Of a stretch of DNA of 64,000 nt, positions 6,827 to 14,709 are shown in pieces. A program made the position numbers and the translations under genes. Origin of the DNA: Vicinamibacterales bacterium (lineage in GTDB: Bacteria > Acidobacteriota > Vicinamibacteria > Vicinamibacterales > UBA8438); NCBI GenBank assembly GCA_965207665.1, contig CBDBMV010000002.1, positions 89,704-153,703 on the forward strand, in the 5' to 3' direction. The notes below the pieces were generated by a model. The model did no database searches, had not been told where the DNA came from, and saw nothing but the letters and a program-made list of their open reading frames with translations. Positions within the stretch are counted from its first letter, which is position 1; each line of letters opens with the position of its first letter.

Positions 6827-7738
6827 TCAAACTCCCTGAAACCAATCGGACCGGATCCGCACCCTCTCGATCATCTCAGTCTCAACGCCAAGTTCGTTTT
6901 CCTTGAGCAGGTCGCAAAGGCGATCCCCGTCTATCAGGTCGATCGCGATCGCGCCATCCCGGGTGGCCTCATCAGAGGCCTGACTGGTGAAATTACCCGT
7001 TGTGATGAACAGGCCTTTGTCAGCACGCCCCTGCAACGCGCCGCGAAAATCCCTAATCTCCTTGGCGCCGACGCTCCCCTTCCAACGCTTGCACTGGAAA
7101 TAGATCTGAAAAGAAACCAAGTTCACGCGCAGCACGCCCACACCGTCGATACCACCGTCACCGGACTTCCCACGCACTTCGACTTTGGTGAATCCCGCTT
7201 CGCGCAAGAGACGTTGTGACAGCCGCTCAAATGCATCGGGCGGCATCGCAACCAGCACTGCCACGAGCGACGACTTCCAGTCTTCAGCCTCCTCTGAGTC
7301 GCCATTCGTCGATCCAACAATAGCCGCATCAGCCGCCTTGGCTGCCTGACGCTTGGCACGTGCTCGTTCGCGCTCTTCTTTCGCAACCTGCGCATAGATC
7401 GCACCTGTTTCGTCGAGCTCCGTGATCGCTGCTCCGCTATCGGTCAGCGCCCAGACCCCACGCGAAGAGTTCACGAGTGCCTTGCCGCGTCTGAGGTATG
7501 TGCGCGCCCAGGCGAGGTAGTAACTCACCCGCGTCTGGTTTTCGTTTCGTGGCATCGTGAAGGTCTGCTCGGCTTCGGTCACGCCCTCTAAATCGACCAC
7601 CTTCTCGTCAAGCTCTTGAATAGTGGCCGATCCGCCCAAGTCCTTGAGTGCTTCGATCGTAACTAGCATCATCCCGGGCAAATCCGGCAGGCTTTCCGCG
7701 TCGATCTCAAAACGTCTCTTTACCATTGCACTGTCCAA
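6827..7738 (-). CDS. mrr: Mrr-type restriction endonuclease
   Basis: N-terminal winged-helix-like region plus a C-terminal Mrr catalytic core: GDGGIDGVG ... YFQCKRW ... GLFITTG. G+C is visibly lower than the flanks. Confidence 0.85.
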   Translation of the reverse strand: MDSAMVKRRFEIDAESLPDLPGMMLVTIEALKDLGGSATIQELDEKVVDLEGVTEAEQTFTMPRNENQTRVSYYLAWARTYLRRGKALVNSSRGVWALTDSGAAITELDETGAIYAQVAKEERERARAKRQAAKAADAAIVGSTNGDSEEAEDWKSSLVAVLVAMPPDAFERLSQRLLREAGFTKVEVRGKSGDGGIDGVGVLRVNLVSFQIYFQCKRWKGSVGAKEIRDFRGALQGRADKGLFITTGNFTSQASDEATRDGAIAIDLIDGDRLCDLLKENELGVETEMIERVRIRSDWFQGV

Positions 7739-7999
7739 ATCGTTGGAATCACATGCCTACGAACTTGTCACCATCGCATGTGGTCCCTACTATAACCGGA
7801 CCTGTCGACCCTCGTGAACCGTGCTGGGTTTCCGGGAGGCTCCGCTTCTTCGATGCATGGAGTTCGAGGAAAGACCGAGTCGGTACACGCCGATGGAACG
7901 CGACAGGGCGGCTCGAATGGTACTGGAGTTGAGACGGACCGCTATCCGGTAGTGTGCCGCACCACCCCGGAGCCCCCCTGAAATCGAAGAAAATAGCGC

Positions 8000-8575
8000 A
8001 TGGCCACGTCAAGCCTTGGCAGACTAGCAGTGGTGCTTCGTACGGGCGACGAACAGTTCCAAGGCATCGCTGACTCGCTGCGGTTGCTCGACTACTGGCG
8101 CTGGTCCGGCTCCAGTCTCATGGACAACACGGCTCGAGGGTTGCTTGCCGAGTTCCTAGTTGCGGCGGCCGTTGGCCTGCACAAAACACCCCGGACTGAA
8201 TGGGATAGCTACGACGTGCGTGCGCCGAACGGCACCACGATCGAGGTCAAGAGCGCCGCCTCCATTCAGTCGTGGGAACAGGCCGCTCCGACCCCGATCC
8301 AGTTCGGGATCGCTCCTCGTTACGGCTGGGATCCAGAGACAGGGCAGTACGGCGAGCAGCCTCGGCGCTGGGCTGATCTCTACGTCTTCTGCGTCCTCAA
8401 GGGTACGGAGCCGCTCGACATCGACAAGTGGCAGTTCTACGTGGTTCAAACGACGGTGCTCAACGAAGTGTGCGGAGACCAGAGAACTATCCGCCTGGCG
8501 CCACTCCGTCGGCTTCCACACCGGCAATGTGGTTACCGGGACTTGAAGGACGTTATCGAGAACATGGACGGGTAG
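8000..8575 (+). CDS. PD-(D/E)xK nuclease-like hypothetical protein
   Basis: 191-aa ORF with LLAEFLV ... SYDVRAPNGTTIEVKSA (D ... ExK arrangement). Divergent from mrr. Confidence 0.55.
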   Translation: MATSSLGRLAVVLRTGDEQFQGIADSLRLLDYWRWSGSSLMDNTARGLLAEFLVAAAVGLHKTPRTEWDSYDVRAPNGTTIEVKSAASIQSWEQAAPTPIQFGIAPRYGWDPETGQYGEQPRRWADLYVFCVLKGTEPLDIDKWQFYVVQTTVLNEVCGDQRTIRLAPLRRLPHRQCGYRDLKDVIENMDG

Positions 8576-8721
8576 ACAGCATCGTTGCGCGCACATCGGC
8601 GCGTACTCCGTTGCAACGATGTTGTGGCGGCGAACGTCGGATTCGAACCCGTCGCGATGTCAACTGACGGAGACTTCGCCAGATGCGAAGCGGTCAACCA
8701 ACGACCACCGGCCTCTTGTAA

Positions 8722-9042
8722 TCGGACACCGGTGGCGACGGACCGGTAGTCGTGCTACTTCACGGCGTGCTGATGAATGGCAGCCTGTGGAACGGCATCG
8801 TGGAGGGCTTGCGCGATCGCTATCGCTGCATCGTCCCGGAGCTGCCGTTCGGCGCACACAGCACGCCGATGCCGAAGGATGCCGACCTCAGCCTCGGATC
8901 GATAACCACCATGATTGCCGAGTTCCTCGTGGAGCTCGACCTGCACGACGTCACTCTGGTCTGCAACGATTGGGGCAGCGCACAGCTCGTCGTCAGCCCC
9001 GGAGGTTCGGATCGGGTCGCGAACCTCGTGCTCGTCTCCTGC
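8722..9042 (+). pseudogene. Alpha/beta-hydrolase gene fragment, truncated at both ends
   Basis: Frame reads GGDGPVVVLLHGVLMNGSLW ... VTLVCNDWGSA (nucleophile-elbow position) ... NLVLVSC. An in-frame stop lies at 8719 just upstream. The 3' part is replaced by IS3 and IS110 sequence from about 9043. Confidence 0.6.
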
Positions 9043-9107
9043 ACCAGCCGAACCGCACGCTCCCGTACCTCCGGTGAATACCGACTCGGTCTTCCCATCG
9101 ACTCCAT
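9043..9107 (-). pseudogene. 5' fragment of an IS3-family orfA (about 22 codons)
   Basis: Minus strand reads (MES)MGRPSRYSPEVRERAVRLVQE, typical of the N-terminus of the IS3/IS911 HTH transposase orfA. Similarity is lost beyond that. Confidence 0.45.
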
Positions 9108-9111
9108 CCTC

Positions 9112-10503
9112 TTAAGAAACTCCAGGCTCCACGAGTTGGCCCGTTTCTAGATGGATCAGGCCGAGACCGAGTTGTTGGGCACGGTTACGGAGATTTCGTA
9201 GGGCGCGCGTACGGTGTTGCGCTTCGTAGGCGTCGACACCCGGATCGGCGTACTCGATGTCGCCGCGCAAAACCCGGTAGACAAGTATCGCGAGCTTACG
9301 AGCCGTCGCGGTGATGGCCTTGGCCTTCCCGACACGGTAGGCGAGACGGCGGTAGTACGCCCCGAGGGCGGTGGAGGTTCTCCCGACCGACATGGCGCAC
9401 AAGCGGAGTATGGTGGCGGCACGGTTCGCAGATGGGACGGTCCGCGAGCTAATCACTCGCCCTCCGGTGATCTTGTTCTTGGGCGCGAGGGTCAGCCAGG
9501 ACGTGAAGTGCTTTGCGCTGGGCCACCGCGTCATGTCGGTGCCGATCTCGGCGATGAGTCGTAGGGCCGTATACGGCCCGATGGAGTCGATCCGTGTGAG
9601 ATCCGCGCCGCAGAGGCGGTGGAGGGGGCTGCGAATCTCGAAGCGCGGTTCGTTCTTGGTCCGCTGCCGCTGCCGCGCCGGAGAAAGCGCGTTCTCGGAA
9701 GACGCGTGCTCCGCGGCCAAGTCCCGCAGCAGGGATTCGATCGCCTCATCGCATCGGCCGATCTGATGCTGATAGCTCTCGTAGAGTTCGAGGTTTTGGC
9801 GCAGGGCAAAGACATGCTCTGGCCGATAGTTCCCGGTCAGTGCGGCGGCAATCTCGTCCTCAGACGCACGACAGCGGTAGTTGCGGTGAGCCGCGAGTGC
9901 GCCGGGGTCGGTCACGCCGCGGGCGATGTCGCGTACGATTCGTATCCCCGTCTCTCCGGTGATGTCGGTAATGACATGATGGAGCTGGACGTTCATCTGC
10001 ACCAGGGCTTTCTGAATCCGACGGACGTGCGTGGCGGCATCCTGTATCAGCGTCTCCCGATGCCGGAGGTACGCGCGGAGTGAGACCAGATCCGCTGACG
10101 GTCGGAAACTCCCGCGCAGCAGGCCGACGCTGTGCAGTTCCTGCAGCCACTGGCAGTCGATCACATCCGTCTTCCGTCCCGGGACGTTCTTCACGTGTCG
10201 GGCGTTCACCAGCACTACCTCAAAGCCTTGTGCTTCGAGCATGTCATACAGCGGGATCCAGAACACGCCGGTGGCCTCCATAGCCACCGTGTCGATGCGG
10301 CATGCCTGCAACCACTCGACCAGTTTAGAAAGCTGTGGCGTCAGCGTCCTGAAGCGACGGACCGGCTCTCGGTCCCGATCGGCCGGTACCGCCACGTAGT
10401 GATGCTGAGCCCCGCAGTCGATCCCGGCGGCGTTGGGCTTGATCTCCGGTAGTGCCGCCGCCGGCTTCTTCGTCTTCTGTGCACGAACGCGCCTGTCTGC
10501 CAT
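9112..10503 (-). CDS. IS110-family transposase (DEDD/RuvC-like N-terminal domain plus C-terminal Tnp domain)
   Basis: 463 aa: AGIDCGAQHHYVAV, VAMEATGVFW, VVLVNARHVKN ... KTDVIDCQWL; C-terminal LTRIDSIGPYTALRLIAEIG ... FTSWLTLAPKNKITGG. Confidence 0.9.
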   Translation of the reverse strand: MADRRVRAQKTKKPAAALPEIKPNAAGIDCGAQHHYVAVPADRDREPVRRFRTLTPQLSKLVEWLQACRIDTVAMEATGVFWIPLYDMLEAQGFEVVLVNARHVKNVPGRKTDVIDCQWLQELHSVGLLRGSFRPSADLVSLRAYLRHRETLIQDAATHVRRIQKALVQMNVQLHHVITDITGETGIRIVRDIARGVTDPGALAAHRNYRCRASEDEIAAALTGNYRPEHVFALRQNLELYESYQHQIGRCDEAIESLLRDLAAEHASSENALSPARQRQRTKNEPRFEIRSPLHRLCGADLTRIDSIGPYTALRLIAEIGTDMTRWPSAKHFTSWLTLAPKNKITGGRVISSRTVPSANRAATILRLCAMSVGRTSTALGAYYRRLAYRVGKAKAITATARKLAILVYRVLRGDIEYADPGVDAYEAQHRTRALRNLRNRAQQLGLGLIHLETGQLVEPGVS

Positions 10504-10766
10504 CGGATCCTCCTCCGCTCGGCGATTGGAGAGTCCGGGGGCAGGGTGCGGTTAGGAACAATCTCTTAAGCGGGATCACGCAAGCGTGTCACCAACGAGG
10601 TGGCCGCGACACATCCCTTGGACCACGCTCCCAAACGGGCTCGCCAAGCACCAGTGGAAGGGTCGGCCTCAGTCCCCGGACGCCGCCGCGACTCTACCCC
10701 AGCATGCCGCGAGAGAACCCCGGTTTCTTTGATTTCAGGTGTCGGGCGTCGCGCCCCGTACGGCGG
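10504..10766 (-). ncRNA. Candidate bridge-RNA-encoding 5' non-coding end of IS110 copy 1
   Basis: 263 nt without a credible ORF, upstream of the transposase gene. Contains 8-mers identical to the element-end/core junction (ctcttaag at 10563-10570) and to the target-flank/core junction (gctcccaa at 10627-10634). Confidence 0.35.
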
Positions 10767-10769
10767 CTC

Positions 10770-12161
10770 TTAAGAAACTCCAGGCTCCACGAGTTGGCCC
10801 GTTTCTAGATGGATCAGGCCGAGACCGAGTTGTTGGGCACGGTTACGGAGATTTCGTAGGGCGCGCGTACGGTGTTGCGCTTCGTAGGCGTCGACACCCG
10901 GATCGGCGTACTCGATGTCGCCGCGCAAAACCCGGTAGACAAGTATCGCGAGCTTACGAGCCGTCGCGGTGATGGCCTTGGCCTTCCCGACACGGTAGGC
11001 GAGACGGCGGTAGTACGCCCCGAGGGCGGTGGAGGTTCTCCCGACCGACATGGCGCACAAGCGGAGTATGGTGGCGGCACGGTTCGCAGATGGGACGGTC
11101 CGCGAGCTAATCACTCGCCCTCCGGTGATCTTGTTCTTGGGCGCGAGGGTCAGCCAGGACGTGAAGTGCTTTGCGCTGGGCCACCGCGTCATGTCGGTGC
11201 CGATCTCGGCGATGAGTCGTAGGGCCGTATACGGCCCGATGGAGTCGATCCGTGTGAGATCCGCGCCGCAGAGGCGGTGGAGGGGGCTGCGAATCTCGAA
11301 GCGCGGTTCGTTCTTGGTCCGCTGCCGCTGCCGCGCCGGAGAAAGCGCGTTCTCGGAAGACGCGTGCTCCGCGGCCAAGTCCCGCAGCAGGGATTCGATC
11401 GCCTCATCGCATCGGCCGATCTGATGCTGATAGCTCTCGTAGAGTTCGAGGTTTTGGCGCAGGGCAAAGACATGCTCTGGCCGATAGTTCCCGGTCAGTG
11501 CGGCGGCAATCTCGTCCTCAGACGCACGACAGCGGTAGTTGCGGTGAGCCGCGAGTGCGCCGGGGTCGGTCACGCCGCGGGCGATGTCGCGTACGATTCG
11601 TATCCCCGTCTCTCCGGTGATGTCGGTAATGACATGATGGAGCTGGACGTTCATCTGCACCAGGGCTTTCTGAATCCGACGGACGTGCGTGGCGGCATCC
11701 TGTATCAGCGTCTCCCGATGCCGGAGGTACGCGCGGAGTGAGACCAGATCCGCTGACGGTCGGAAACTCCCGCGCAGCAGGCCGACGCTGTGCAGTTCCT
11801 GCAGCCACTGGCAGTCGATCACATCCGTCTTCCGTCCCGGGACGTTCTTCACGTGTCGGGCGTTCACCAGCACTACCTCAAAGCCTTGTGCTTCGAGCAT
11901 GTCATACAGCGGGATCCAGAACACGCCGGTGGCCTCCATAGCCACCGTGTCGATGCGGCATGCCTGCAACCACTCGACCAGTTTAGAAAGCTGTGGCGTC
12001 AGCGTCCTGAAGCGACGGACCGGCTCTCGGTCCCGATCGGCCGGTACCGCCACGTAGTGATGCTGAGCCCCGCAGTCGATCCCGGCGGCGTTGGGCTTGA
12101 TCTCCGGTAGTGCCGCCGCCGGCTTCTTCGTCTTCTGTGCACGAACGCGCCTGTCTGCCAT
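10770..12161 (-). CDS. IS110-family transposase (identical second copy)
   Basis: 463-aa product identical to 9112..10503. Confidence 0.9.
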   Translation of the reverse strand: MADRRVRAQKTKKPAAALPEIKPNAAGIDCGAQHHYVAVPADRDREPVRRFRTLTPQLSKLVEWLQACRIDTVAMEATGVFWIPLYDMLEAQGFEVVLVNARHVKNVPGRKTDVIDCQWLQELHSVGLLRGSFRPSADLVSLRAYLRHRETLIQDAATHVRRIQKALVQMNVQLHHVITDITGETGIRIVRDIARGVTDPGALAAHRNYRCRASEDEIAAALTGNYRPEHVFALRQNLELYESYQHQIGRCDEAIESLLRDLAAEHASSENALSPARQRQRTKNEPRFEIRSPLHRLCGADLTRIDSIGPYTALRLIAEIGTDMTRWPSAKHFTSWLTLAPKNKITGGRVISSRTVPSANRAATILRLCAMSVGRTSTALGAYYRRLAYRVGKAKAITATARKLAILVYRVLRGDIEYADPGVDAYEAQHRTRALRNLRNRAQQLGLGLIHLETGQLVEPGVS

Positions 12162-12424
12162 CGGATCCTCCTCCGCTCGGCGATTGGAGAGTCCGGGGGC
12201 AGGGTGCGGTTAGGAACAATCTCTTAAGCGGGATCACGCAAGCGTGTCACCAACGAGGTGGCCGCGACACATCCCTTGGACCACGCTCCCAAACGGGCTC
12301 GCCAAGCACCAGTGGAAGGGTCGGCCTCAGTCCCCGGACGCCGCCGCGACTCTACCCCAGCATGCCGCGAGAGAACCCCGGTTTCTTTGATTTCAGGTGT
12401 CGGGCGTCGCGCCCCGTACGGCGG
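12162..12424 (-). ncRNA. Candidate bridge-RNA-encoding 5' non-coding end of IS110 copy 2
   Basis: Identical to 10504..10766. Confidence 0.35.
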
Positions 12425-12427
12425 CTC

Positions 12428-12469
12428 CCAAGAAATGGAGTCTCCAGGAAACCCGGTACGGTTCATACA
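12428..12469 (-). mobile_element. IS3-family left-end remnant (terminal repeat region), separated from its orfA start by the IS110 pair
   Basis: Minus strand reads TG(TA)TGAACCGTACCGGGTTTCCTGGAGACTCCATTTCTTGG. Joining it to 9108 and downward restores GGGAGGA-N8-ATG of the orfA fragment. Confidence 0.4.
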
Positions 12470-12609
12470 AATGGTTGACGACATCTCTGTCCTCGACAAT
12501 AGTGCTGCTCTTTGTCTGAGCGATGAGAACGAAAGTCAAATTATTCAATAGCCGTGCCTTCATCGCCATCTACAGGAGGCAGGGCGGCGCACTTAGGCCA
12601 ACAATCCTA

Positions 12610-14709
12610 TCATGGCATGAGCGCGACAAAATCTGCGTACGCTGTGCGCAACCTCGCTACGAAATGGTTTCTCTCCTGCGCCTGGACGTGTCGCGTCTGT
12701 ACTGCGGTCTTCTTCTCGTACGGGTGTGATACTGGAACGTGGTTTCGCCGAGTGTTCATGTCCCGGAAGCAGCCACCTATTCTTGGACAATTCCTTGAAA
12801 ACGGTCCGTTCGCGTCCAGCGTCACTCCGAAATCAACAAGGTTTCCATCCTTGCCCACCGTGGTACAAGCTGCGCGGTGACCCGCAGCCGCTAGGTGCCG
12901 CTGTAGCGCCAAGAACACAGTTTGATTAAACGAGTTCTGACATACCAACCAAAACGATCGCCTAGCAGCGAACGTCGCCTCCGCCAGCTTTAGCATGCCG
13001 AGTGCATGGACGTACTCAGCGCCCAACAGCGTGCGCCATGATTTACCCCGTGGCACGCTGTATCGAGCGTTGAGAATCTCCGCAACGGCATCAACTTTCG
13101 GGACCGGCGACGCGGTGACGCCCAGCTCACCTAGCGTGTTCGCTACCTGCGATGGCAGCGCCGCCGTCGTTAGGCCAAACGTCGACGGGGATAACCCTCG
13201 CTCTTGCAGTGCCGCACAAACTGAAAGGCCGGGTTCAGGACTGCTGCGCCTGAGAAATATATCTACCAGCTCGTCTTTGCGATAGCTTCCATCCGGAAGA
13301 ACGGGAGCTAACACCGATTGCAGCAGCGGCACCTGGTACTTCAGCCACCGACTGAGACGACGCGACGTCACCTCCTCAGAGACGCACAGGAAGTGACACG
13401 CCCCCCATTTCTCCACGAAGTTCTCAAAGGATTTCTTTCTTGCAATACTCACGGCACGGTCGATGAAGTTGCGGAGTTCAGCCACGGTCTTCGAGGTTGG
13501 GGTCCGTACGTACCGGGCAAGCACGTGCCACGCCTCGCCACGAATGTACGGGTAGGGACTGCTTTGAACTAGATCGTGACAGAGTCGTTCGATCGGCCTG
13601 CGAAAGCCAAATCGTCCGATATAGGCAAAGAACGCATCAGCATGCTCAGGATGTCGTGTGATCAGGCGTAGGACGAATTTGAGTAGGTCCGTATCCGGAT
13701 CTGCACGGTAGAGTACAAACCGAAGCCTTGTCTTGTCAGTAACACGGTTAGGTCTCCCTGCAATCGCAGAGCGAAAAGTGCTGCGAGCATACTGCCTGTC
13801 GAGCCTTTCGCTCCCTGAGCCTTCATGTTGCGGATCTGAAATGCTCGGCAACATCCCCATCGCGTCTTCCACGCTCTGTGCACGCTTTATGGAAAACTTT
13901 CCGGTCTGGGGAATAAGGCCTCGCTCCCTACAATGGCGCTCCAGTTCAATGAGACTTGCACGAACCTCGTCCTCAGTCGCACCGAAAAGCCTAACGTCGT
14001 CAACATATCGCGTATAGCCCCGACGCTTCTGTAGGGCGCGGTCGATGGGAAAGAGGAAGCATTCGGCAAGGAAATCAGATGCTAGCGGACCTTGCGGCAA
14101 TCCATGACCGTGTCCAGACGACGCTCGGTCGGAACTCCAGACCTTTAGGCACTCTCCGAGCCATTCCAGGTCGGCACTCGACGTTCGGGGATAAATCGTC
14201 CTCAGTAGAAGCTCGTGAGAAATTGTCTCGTAAAATGCCGCCAGGTCGAAGTCGCCAACCCACCGGATACCGTCGGCGTAGTGCCTCTTAATCTGGCGCT
14301 GGAATGCCCTGTATGTGAACTGCCATTGGCGAAAGAAAAAGATGCTCTCGGGTTTCTCGAGTATGTTGCTGAACACGACCTTGAACTGGAGCGGTCGGCG
14401 TTTCTGCTGCATTCGCTTGGCCGCGAGATTGGCGAATGCCTGAAGGACGATCTGATCTTCGACTCGAAGTAGAGCAAGCGGTCGATGGAGGCCTGAGGCC
14501 TTTGGAACGTAAATGCGTTCTGGACGTTGCGGTTCAAAGGCCCGACCGATTAGGCGTTGCCGGAGGTCTGCTAGGTTCGCACTAAGCGCGACCTCGTATG
14601 CGTAGTATATGTCTCGATAGAAGCGCTTATACTGGTAATTGCTACCCGTTGTGATTCGTCGCCAAGCCAGCTCTAAATTGTTCTTGCTTGCGAGCTGGTT
14701 TATCCTCAT
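12610..14709 (-). CDS. Stand-alone reverse transcriptase with ~370-aa helical C-terminal extension (Abi/UG defence-associated RT-like)
   Basis: 699 aa with RT motifs YVPKASGLHRPLALLRVEDQIVLQA, DFDLAAFYETISH, GLPQGPLASDFLAECF and YTRYVDDVRLFG. No endonuclease or maturase motifs seen. Low-G+C context. Confidence 0.85.
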   Translation of the reverse strand: MRINQLASKNNLELAWRRITTGSNYQYKRFYRDIYYAYEVALSANLADLRQRLIGRAFEPQRPERIYVPKASGLHRPLALLRVEDQIVLQAFANLAAKRMQQKRRPLQFKVVFSNILEKPESIFFFRQWQFTYRAFQRQIKRHYADGIRWVGDFDLAAFYETISHELLLRTIYPRTSSADLEWLGECLKVWSSDRASSGHGHGLPQGPLASDFLAECFLFPIDRALQKRRGYTRYVDDVRLFGATEDEVRASLIELERHCRERGLIPQTGKFSIKRAQSVEDAMGMLPSISDPQHEGSGSERLDRQYARSTFRSAIAGRPNRVTDKTRLRFVLYRADPDTDLLKFVLRLITRHPEHADAFFAYIGRFGFRRPIERLCHDLVQSSPYPYIRGEAWHVLARYVRTPTSKTVAELRNFIDRAVSIARKKSFENFVEKWGACHFLCVSEEVTSRRLSRWLKYQVPLLQSVLAPVLPDGSYRKDELVDIFLRRSSPEPGLSVCAALQERGLSPSTFGLTTAALPSQVANTLGELGVTASPVPKVDAVAEILNARYSVPRGKSWRTLLGAEYVHALGMLKLAEATFAARRSFWLVCQNSFNQTVFLALQRHLAAAGHRAACTTVGKDGNLVDFGVTLDANGPFSRNCPRIGGCFRDMNTRRNHVPVSHPYEKKTAVQTRHVQAQERNHFVARLRTAYADFVALMP

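What the first reader, a model, noticed from the sequence alone, without database searches (positions are those of the whole stretch)
9109..12427. Two identical IS110-family elements in direct head-to-tail tandem sharing a CTC core
The 1658-bp unit occurs twice with no spacer. The trinucleotide CTC is found at the left junction (9109-9111), the inter-copy junction (10767-10769) and the right junction (12425-12427). This is what is expected if CT(C) is the recombination core shared by donor and target in IS110-type recombination. The internal junction is equivalent to the RE-LE junction of the excised circular intermediate. In several IS families such a junction creates a strong promoter and makes tandem dimers hyperactive. 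The transposase stop codon (TAA, 9112-9114) abuts the element end, and all non-coding sequence (263 nt) is upstream of the gene (IS110-subgroup layout).
Basis: partly seen in the sequence, partly recalled or inferred. Interest (0 to 1): 0.6.

Follow-up and report, generated by a model that had tools for sequence, protein, structure and literature searches.

The report
Tandem pair of RNA-guided IS110 elements
Two identical copies of a small RNA-guided jumping gene sit head to tail inside the remnant of another jumping gene; the pair appears real, but such pairs are a recently described by-product of how this family recombines, so this is a tidy example and not a new kind of system.

Summary
Window 9109-10766 and 10767-12424 are identical 1658-bp units with no spacer, and CTC stands at all three junctions. 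Each unit is an IS110-group element: a DEDD/Transposase_20 recombinase and a 263-nt left end encoding a bridge RNA.

Guide comparison in about 24 relatives shows the crossover core is the dinucleotide CT (AG on the coding strand). The third C is a chance match between target and element end.

The target is the left end of an IS3-family element, between the ribosome-binding site and the ATG of orfA. Uninterrupted copies in the same genome carry the core once.

The same dimer, 100% identical, occurs in an independent metagenome contig inside an intact IS3. Relatives form dimers and a trimer in two other genomes.

The junction-promoter and hyperactivity idea is not supported. No sigma-70 match spans the junction, and a conserved -10-like box lies 70 nt inside the left end.

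Tandem IS110 modules are already reported (bioRxiv 2025.10.25.684509; 2026.08.14.744561). This scan earlier saw a tandem IS110 with the same reversed guide order on other DNA (e1-4407587).

The parts
10767..12424 (-). IS110-group element, copy A (upstream copy in the coding direction), 1658-bp unit including its 3' core
   Evidence: Identical to 9109-10766. The ends are fixed by empty-site copies and by the same element in L151 and L153.
9109..10766 (-). IS110-group element, copy B (downstream copy)
10770..12161 (-). Recombinase gene of copy A, 463 aa
   Evidence: PF01548 DEDD_Tnp_IS110 (E 1.6e-24) and PF02371 Transposase_20 (E 1.8e-12). D29, E76, D113, D116 align with IS621 D11, E60, D102, D105. 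T346 aligns with the catalytic S241.
9112..10503 (-). Recombinase gene of copy B, 463 aa. The TAA stop (9112-9114) lies inside the right-end donor sequence TTTCTTAAGAG.
12425..12426 (-). Core dinucleotide (AG on the coding strand, CT on +) at the left junction (target left half | element left end)
   Evidence: In relatives the target guides are variable 6-mers followed by invariant AG (AA in one subclade), and the donor guides end in the same dinucleotide.
10767..10768 (-). Core dinucleotide at the inter-copy junction. 10757-10780 reads right end - AG - left end, the sequence of the circle junction (a complete donor site).
9109..9110 (-). Core dinucleotide at the right junction (element right end | target right half)
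12189..12342 (-). Predicted bridge RNA of copy A (element nt about 83-236). Closing helix P1 is GUCCGGGG / CCCCGGAC.
   Evidence: An alignment of 25 left ends shows compensatory changes in helices P1, P2 and P5. The RNA starts about 10 nt after the conserved TAGAGT box.
10531..10684 (-). Predicted bridge RNA of copy B
   Evidence: Same as copy A.
12286..12293 (-). Left target guide UUUGGGAG (copy A; copy B at 10628-10635). It matches the target left half plus core, ..TTGGGAG.
   Evidence: In 20+ relatives the equivalent 7-mer matches 7/7 or 6/7 the DNA just outside the conserved left terminus.
12221..12228 (-). Left donor guide CUUAAGAG (copy A; copy B at 10563-10570). It matches the element right end plus core, CTTAAGAG.
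   Evidence: The guide covaries with the right end in relatives: TTAGGAG, TTGGGAG, TTAAGAG, TTAGGAA, GGAGAG.
12314..12319 (-). Candidate right target guide CCUUCC (copy A; copy B at 10656-10661), 5' of the left target guide. It is complementary to the target right half GATGG with one mismatch.
   Evidence: Of all alignment columns scanned, this one showed the largest excess of complementarity to each element's own right flank over permuted flanks, about three times the next-best column (3.6 of 6 vs 2.1). Moderate confidence.
12349..12354 (-). Conserved -10-like box TAGAGT (copy A; copy B at 10691-10696), element nt 71-76
   Evidence: It reads TACAAT, TAGAAT or TAGGAT in most relatives (12 of 20 shown), within GC-rich sequence.
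12381..12386 (-). Subterminal inverted repeat: AGAAAC in the left end (copy B at 10723-10728), pairing with GTTTCT in the right end (10773-10778; 9115-9120)
   Evidence: Conserved in relatives.
12427..12465 (-). IS3-family element remnant, outer part of its left end (TGAACCGTACCGGG...TTTCTTGG G)
   Evidence: 92-94% identical to uninterrupted copies in the same genome. The full 1316-bp element with orfA/orfB is seen in L151 and at C2:1028456-1029770.
9025..9108 (-). IS3-family element remnant, inner part: ATG and first ~22 codons of orfA. It then breaks off against a truncated alpha/beta-hydrolase gene (8752-~9040, +).

Best explanation
This is a real, exact head-to-tail dimer of one bridge-RNA-guided IS110-group insertion sequence. 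The unit is 1656 bp plus a shared 2-nt core.

The element inserted by core-for-core recombination into the left end of an IS3-family element, between the ribosome-binding site and the ATG of orfA. The target-binding guide UUUGGGAG in its left-end RNA specifies that site.

The second copy was most likely added by the element's own recombinase acting on half-sites. Each junction of a resident copy keeps one donor half: the left end at the left junction and the right end at the right junction. Either of two events gives exactly ...right end-AG-left end... with n+1 cores:
- an excision-type exchange between the left junction on one sister chromosome and the right junction on the other; or
- re-entry of an excised circle at one of these hybrid junctions.

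The dimer is a by-product and not a specialised form. Its internal junction is a complete donor site, and nothing in the sequence marks it as a junction promoter.

Shown: the structure, the family, the core, the target, the left guides and the recurrence of such arrays. Inferred: which of the recombination routes made the dimer.
For: - Exact duplication and three cores.
- Empty sites with one core.
- DEDD and Tnp domains and alignment to IS621.
- Left target guide and left donor guide match the target and the right end. Both covary with them across 20+ relatives.
- RNA helices show compensatory changes.
- The same dimer, 100% identical over both copies, is in an independent contig (ENA ERZ25069412, 417 kb) inside an intact IS3. 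Its flanks differ from ours by 1 nt on each side and its neighbouring genes are different. A single copy sits in a third contig.
- Relatives form an exact dimer in a genome of the same genus (G005, 1605-bp unit).
- In an alphaproteobacterial MAG, relatives form a dimer, a trimer whose junctions carry 3 extra left-flank bases, and a duplication of element plus 360 bp of left flank. These slipped junctions point to right-end-anchored exchange and not to homologous recombination.
- In L073 a different IS110, whose target guide is UUUAGGAG, sits exactly at the right end ...TTTCTTAAGAG of a 78% relative. This shows that circles can enter a right junction.
- Published work: tandem cargo repeats arose in about 3% of CazIS110-1 excision events. 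[quoted passage not shown] Donor-only half-match recombination was shown for IS621.
Against: - Physical proof in this genome is therefore missing.
- The canonical junction here would equally result from RecA-dependent integration of a circle into the resident copy.
- The right junction is not an outstanding pseudo-target for the target-binding loop. It scores 8 of 11, shared with about 200 sites, and 19 sites score higher.
- Two good unoccupied IS3-type targets exist in the same genome. This suggests little recent transposition here, and the dimer may have arrived ready-made.
- The two dimers in different genomes may share one origin, so they count as two assemblies but not necessarily as two formation events.
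- The right donor guide could not be located.
Confidence: 0.65

Rival explanations
1. The dimer was made by the host's homologous recombination. Either an excised double-stranded circle integrated into the resident copy through RecA, or there was an unequal exchange between sister copies. The IS recombinase played no part beyond making the circle.
For: The junction is the canonical circle junction, as this route predicts. The copies are 100% identical over 1658 bp, which makes them an ideal RecA substrate. Excision in CazIS110-1 fell about 2-fold without RecA.
Against: Arrays of relatives have junctions shifted by 3 nt or by 360 nt into the left flank while always starting at the right end. 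Homologous recombination would not produce that. The catalogued tandem units keep donor half-matches at their boundaries. Recent work finds mainly single-stranded circles for IS621, which are poor RecA partners for simple integration.
Confidence: 0.18
2. The dimer is an active (IS)2-type transposition intermediate. The abutted ends would create a strong promoter and a hyper-reactive donor that drives transposition, replicon fusion or rearrangement.
For: The internal junction is a complete donor site (right end - AG - left end). In IS621 the circle junction does rebuild a sigma-70 promoter for the bridge RNA. Read-through from the recombinase gene of copy A into copy B is not blocked by any predicted terminator.
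Against: No -35/-10 pair spans the junction. The conserved -10-like box is 70 nt inside the left end in this clade. There are only two copies in the genome despite free targets. CazIS110-1 tandem repeats reverted without yielding extra circles.
Confidence: 0.1
3. Assembly artefact: the genome has one copy, and the assembler duplicated it, for example from circle-derived or chimeric long reads.
For: Reads could not be inspected. Every tandem array seen here comes from highly contiguous assemblies, probably from long reads.
Against: An independent assembly of other DNA contains the identical dimer in another context. Arrays of relatives occur in three further genomic places, with different unit lengths and flank-specific junctions. 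Assemblers usually collapse tandem repeats and do not create them (general knowledge).
Confidence: 0.07

Closest known systems
IS621 (E. coli) and the IS110 group of bridge-RNA recombinases (Durrant et al. 2024, PMC11208160; Hiraizumi et al. 2024, PMC11208158)
   Same: - A DEDD RuvC-like domain plus a Tnp domain.
- A long left end encoding a structured RNA with a target loop and a donor loop.
- Left guides with the sense of target or donor left half plus core.
- A 2-nt core shared by donor and target.
- No terminal inverted repeats, and a short subterminal inverted repeat.
   Different: - The core is AG (AA in a subclade) instead of CT in the RNA-sense strand.
- The right target guide appears to lie 5' of the left target guide, the opposite of IS621 (LTG 50-58, RTG 77-80).
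- The residue aligned with the catalytic S241 is Thr346.
- The -10-like box is 70 nt inside the left end, not next to the junction.
- The recombinase is 463 aa against 326 aa, and only distantly related (phmmer E 9.5e-9).
Tandem IS110 modules and tandem cargo repeats (Hu et al. bioRxiv 10.64898/2026.08.14.744561; Sun et al. bioRxiv 10.1101/2025.10.25.684509)
   Same: Head-to-tail duplication of a complete IS110 unit at an occupied site, with boundaries at the element's own recombination points. Relatives show arrays that keep the right-end (left-donor) boundary.
   Different: Those reports are a survey (n=437) and an E. coli assay with CazIS110-1. Here the dimer is a natural one in a soil Acidobacterium, and it is found 100% identical in two genomic contexts. 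It is therefore not only a transient by-product.
IS1111-group elements that target ends of other mobile elements (IS4321/IS5075 in Tn21-family inverted repeats; Partridge and Hall 2003, cited in PMC11208160)
   Same: A DEDD-recombinase IS whose specific target lies in the terminal region of another transposable element.
   Different: Those elements carry the guide RNA in the right end and have long subterminal repeats. This element has the IS110-group layout and targets an IS3-family left end between the ribosome-binding site and the ATG of orfA.
(IS)2 dimers of IS21, IS30 and IS911-type elements (e.g. PMC9333248 for IS30)
   Same: Two copies are abutted so that the right and left ends meet as in the circular intermediate.
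   Different: In those DDE families the abutted inverted repeats form a promoter and a highly reactive junction. Neither is indicated here, and the chemistry (guide-RNA-directed Ser/Thr-DEDD recombination) is unrelated.

Membership tests
IS110 family (ISfinder), IS110 group | DEDD (RuvC-like) transposase domain | tested here: met
   PF01548 scores 86.9 bits against a cut-off of 29. D29, E76, D113, D116 align with IS621 D11, E60, D102, D105.
IS110 family (ISfinder), IS110 group | C-terminal Tnp domain (Transposase_20) with the conserved nucleophile Ser-Gly (S241-G242 in IS621) | tested here: inconclusive
   The domain is present: PF02371 scores 47.9 bits against a cut-off of 21.3. The aligned residue is T346-G347. 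Close relatives alternate between ..KITGG.. and ..KISGA... A hydroxyl nucleophile is kept, but it is Thr.
IS110 family (ISfinder), IS110 group | No terminal inverted repeats. Insertion leaves no duplication beyond a short core shared by donor and target. | tested here: met
   The ends CCGCCGTACG... and ...TTTCTTAAGAG are not inverted repeats. Empty sites have one AG and the occupied site has n+1.
IS110 family (ISfinder), IS110 group | Long non-coding left end and very short right end (IS110 group, as opposed to IS1111 group) | tested here: met
   The left end is 263 nt. The stop codon lies 3 nt from the right end.
Bridge-RNA recombinase systems | An RNA in the non-coding end with a loop matching the target and a loop matching the donor, both including the core | tested here: met
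   The left target guide and left donor guide match and covary with target and donor in 20+ relatives. Helices show compensatory changes. No Rfam family matched.
Bridge-RNA recombinase systems | [quoted passage not shown] | tested here: inconclusive
   An RTG signal lies just 5' of ACUGGUG (3.6 of 6 vs 2.1 for permuted flanks). No RDG signal was found.
Bridge-RNA recombinase systems | Circular intermediate, and RNA bound by the recombinase | not testable with these tools
   This needs outward PCR, long reads or RNA-seq.
IS621-type circle-junction promoter | [quoted passage not shown] | tested here: not met
   No match at 10450-10950. The conserved -10-like box is at element nt 71-76. The consensus scan may not fit acidobacterial promoters.
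Active (IS)2 dimers (IS21/IS30/IS911 type) | A hyper-reactive abutted-end junction that drives transposition | not testable with these tools
   Only indirect evidence is available: two copies in the genome despite free targets, and the published reversion of CazIS110-1 repeats.

The most novel reading that the evidence does not exclude
The dimer is not just debris but a persistent, transmissible configuration. The identical pair nested in an IS3 carrier occurs in two unrelated genomic contexts. Its internal right end - AG - left end junction is a ready-made chromosomal donor site. It could release a copy without ever vacating the locus, or it could fuse or rearrange replicons by recombining with targets elsewhere. 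That would be an (IS)2-like pathway not yet demonstrated for RNA-guided IS110 elements. It would occur in a clade whose bridge RNA has its guides in permuted order and whose recombinase uses Thr where IS621 has its catalytic Ser.
Probability: 0.15. Interest if true: 0.6.

Novelty: new member of a known kind. Interest (0 to 1): 0.3.

Why it matters
The locus is a clean natural example for current questions about IS110 elements: how they copy themselves, and what half-site recombination does to genomes. It offers the following:
- a canonical dimer, found twice in nature;
- relatives with slipped junctions;
- a heterologous element inserted exactly at a right junction.

It also gives a well-defined, programmable-looking element from Acidobacteria whose features differ from IS621: an AG core, an apparently reversed guide order, a Thr at the nucleophile position and an internal promoter-like box. 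These may interest people who mine bridge recombinases.

For genome annotation, the practical point is that the two genes are one element duplicated in place, inside a dead IS3.

Tried and rejected
- Rfam search of 8500-13000 at E<=1 found nothing.
- No further copies exist in the own genome that could define the ends. The ends were defined from empty sites and from other assemblies instead.
- A scan for a right donor guide gave no column above the permuted control. Manual candidates (GCGGC, CAUCG) did not hold across relatives.
- An alternative right target guide 3' of the left guide (CCACCUC, element nt 164-170) fits this element but not the relatives, so I rejected it.
- I tested whether the right junction is the best look-alike of the target in the genome. 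It is not: it scores 8 of 11 and 19 sites score higher. Mimicry of the target-binding loop alone therefore does not explain the dimer.
- The junction promoter scan found no hits.
- A sample of 400 genomes of the same order showed no further tandem at E<=1e-120. Only 4 candidates per genome were scored, so copy numbers are undercounted.
Full report
**Observation**

Window 9109-10766 and 10767-12424 are identical over 1658 bp with no spacer. The repeat does not extend leftwards and continues 3 bases (CTC) past the second copy, so CTC stands at 9109, 10767 and 12425. Each unit has one long ORF on the minus strand (463 aa; 9112-10503 and 10770-12161). Its TAA stop is 3 nt from the unit end, and 263 nt of non-coding DNA lies upstream. 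The window is G000:C2:89704-153703 of a 4.29-Mb, 69% G+C genome in two contigs. These are the only two copies of the element in it.

**What the unit is**

The protein has Pfam DEDD_Tnp_IS110 and Transposase_20 domains. Its only relative of solved structure is the IS621 transposase. D29, E76, D113 and D116 align with the IS621 catalytic D11, E60, D102 and D105. The residue aligned with the nucleophile S241 is T346, in ..KITGG... Among the 120 closest database homologues this position alternates between Thr and Ser.

**Target and ends**

Read on the coding (minus) strand, the left flank is the start of an IS3-family element: TGAACCGTACCGGGTTTCCTGGAGACTCCATTTCTTGG-GAG. The right flank continues it: GATGGAGTCGATGGGAAGACC, the ATG and first codons of orfA.

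Two uninterrupted copies of this end exist in the same genome (C2:2087149-2087274; C2:1028456-1028581, the latter a full 1.3-kb element). They read ...TTTC(T/C)TGGGAGG(A/G)TGG... with a single GAG. The insertion is therefore precise. It separates orfA from its ribosome-binding site and from everything upstream.

In the window only about 125 bp of the IS3 element survive (12427-12465 and 9025-9108). Beyond 9025 lies a truncated alpha/beta-hydrolase gene.

**Bridge RNA**

The left end contains UUUGGGAG (element nt 132-139), identical in sense to the target left half plus core. It also contains CUUAAGAG (nt 197-204), identical to the element's right end plus core. Both are preceded by CCCG.

I aligned the left ends of 25 elements from relatives at 47-81% protein identity. 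The alignment shows the following.
- **Target guide.** The first motif is a hypervariable 6-mer followed by invariant AG (AA in one subclade). In 20+ elements this 7-mer is found, 7/7 or 6/7, immediately outside a conserved left terminus 53-93 nt upstream.
- **Donor guide.** The second motif covaries with the right end: TTAGGAG, TTGGGAG, TTAAGAG, TTAGGAA, GGAGAG.
- **Core.** The core switches AG to AA in both guides together. The core is therefore AG on the coding strand, which is CT on the window's + strand.
- **Helices.** Helices P1, P2 and P5 show compensatory changes.
- **Right target guide.** A permutation scan found one column where the RNA is more complementary to its own right flank than to other elements' flanks (3.6 of 6 vs 2.1). 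It lies just 5' of a conserved ACUGGUG. The right target guide would then lie 5' of the left one, the reverse of IS621 (LTG 50-58, RTG 77-80).
- **Right donor guide.** None could be found.

No Rfam family matches.

**Promoter**

The consensus scan finds none across 10450-10950. What is conserved is a TAnnnT box (TACAAT, TAGAAT or TAGGAT in most relatives; TAGAGT here) at element nt 71-76. It lies about 10 nt before the first helix of the RNA. Any -35 partner would therefore also lie inside the left end. Upstream of the box is a conserved AGAAAC, the inverted partner of GTTTCT in the right end; together they form a subterminal inverted repeat. IS621 differs in this respect: its promoter is rebuilt by circularisation.

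**Is the tandem real?**

Indirect evidence is strong.
- The exact protein occurs on two other public contigs.
- On ENA ERZ25069412 ctg853333_53x_l (417 kb) the element is again a 2 x 1658-bp dimer. Both copies are 100% identical to ours. There it sits inside an intact IS3 element (orfA 106 aa, orfB 304 aa). The flanks differ from ours by one base on each side, and the neighbouring genes are unrelated.
- On ERZ24894577 ctg415518l it is single (2 mismatches), again in an IS3-type left end.
- A 79% relative in another family of the order (G050), and two of the four full-length 75-78% relatives in Vicinamibacterales MAGs (L075, L112), occupy the same kind of site.

**Recurrence in relatives**

- A 1605-bp relative forms an exact dimer in a genome of the same genus (G005).
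- In an alphaproteobacterial MAG, a 1594-bp relative forms three arrays:
  - an exact dimer;
  - a trimer whose junctions carry 3 extra bases of the left flank;
  - a duplication of the element plus 360 bp of left flank.

  All are anchored at the right end.
- In L073 a different IS110, whose target guide is UUUAGGAG, sits exactly at the right end (...TTTCTTAAGAG|) of the 78% relative.

**Mechanism**

The internal junction equals the circle junction (a full donor site). Each outer junction keeps one donor half. Published work bears on how a second copy can arise:
- tandem repeats arise in about 3% of CazIS110-1 excision events and later revert;
- tandem duplication of whole IS110 modules is common in genomes, with repeat boundaries keeping donor half-matches;
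- donor-only half-match recombination suffices for IS621 excision.

The simplest reading is that the element's recombinase joined a right junction to a left junction on sister chromosomes, or re-inserted a circle at a hybrid junction. RecA-mediated integration of a circle gives the same product and cannot be excluded for this locus. It does not explain the slipped junctions of relatives.

The right junction is only a middling look-alike of the true target (8 of 11; 19 sites score higher), so mimicry of the target loop is not the driver. Two good free targets remain unoccupied in this genome. Together with the identical dimer elsewhere, this suggests the pair may have arrived already formed, perhaps within its IS3 carrier.

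**Verdict**

It is unsupported on promoter and hyperactivity. The element is an unnamed member of a known family, and tandem IS110 modules are already described, so novelty is modest. The side observations may deserve a separate look: the Thr at the nucleophile position, the reversed guide order, the AG core and the internal promoter box.

Noticed in passing
window 9466-9468 and 11124-11126 (codon 346 of the recombinase): The residue aligned with the catalytic Ser241 of IS621 is Thr (..NKITGG..). Among the 120 closest homologues, roughly half have Thr and half Ser at this position, and all more distant relatives checked here have Ser.
   Followed up: partly
window 10621-10668 / 12279-12326 (target-binding part of the predicted RNA): The guides appear in the order right target guide, hairpin, left target guide. 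This is the reverse of IS621, as if the loop were circularly permuted. The same motif (YU-GGUG...hairpin...CCCG-guide) occurs in both the target and the donor domains.
   Followed up: partly
L066-L069 (G096, four copies): All four copies of this relative carry, as part of the repeated unit, an extra CCGTGAG just outside the conserved left terminus. That 7-mer equals the element's own target guide plus core. The element seems to have picked up a copy of its target half-site and now moves with it.
   Followed up: no
L073 3233-6500 (Vicinamibacterales MAG CBDBHJ010000009.1): A heterologous head-to-tail pair. A second IS110 (57% aa identity) has the target guide UUUAGGAG, which resembles the right end of this clade. 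It is inserted exactly at the right end of the 78% relative.
   Followed up: partly
L119, L120, L121 (alphaproteobacterial MAG CAWGGX01, MFD01716.bin.2.148): One genome holds many copies of a 1594-bp relative, including a dimer, a trimer with a 1597-bp period (3 extra left-flank bases at each junction) and a 1954-bp tandem unit that includes 360 bp of left flank.
   Followed up: partly
L071 / L072 (G292): The left flank of this relative reads like the 3' part of a tRNA gene (GGGAATCGAACCCACGACCCGCAGATTAAGAG). Its target guide UUUAAGAG would then aim at a tRNA gene.
   Followed up: no
L043 right end: The right end is followed by a second copy of CCGTTTCTTAGGAG, a 14-bp duplication of the right terminus plus core.
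   Followed up: no
L033 and L035 (G005): Two copies of the G005 element end in ...TTTCTTAGCCCGGA instead of ...TTTCTTAGGAA. L035 shares its 30-bp left flank with the tandem locus L031 but has a different right flank. The tandem in L031 has a right flank (AACCAGCTG) that fits the predicted right target guide poorly.
   Followed up: no
window 7815-7928: A second, more diverged (about 76-78%) copy of the IS3-type left end lies 1.1 kb from the dimer, between the Mrr-type endonuclease gene (6827-7738) and the 191-aa gene (8000-8575). The region looks like a graveyard of mobile-element ends next to defence genes (Mrr, and the reverse transcriptase at 12610-14709).
   Followed up: no
window 9112-9122 / 10770-10780: The last codons and the stop codon of the recombinase gene (GTT TCT TAA) are the subterminal repeat and part of the donor sequence read by the donor guide. 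Right-end variants with TTGGGAG lose this stop codon.
   Followed up: no
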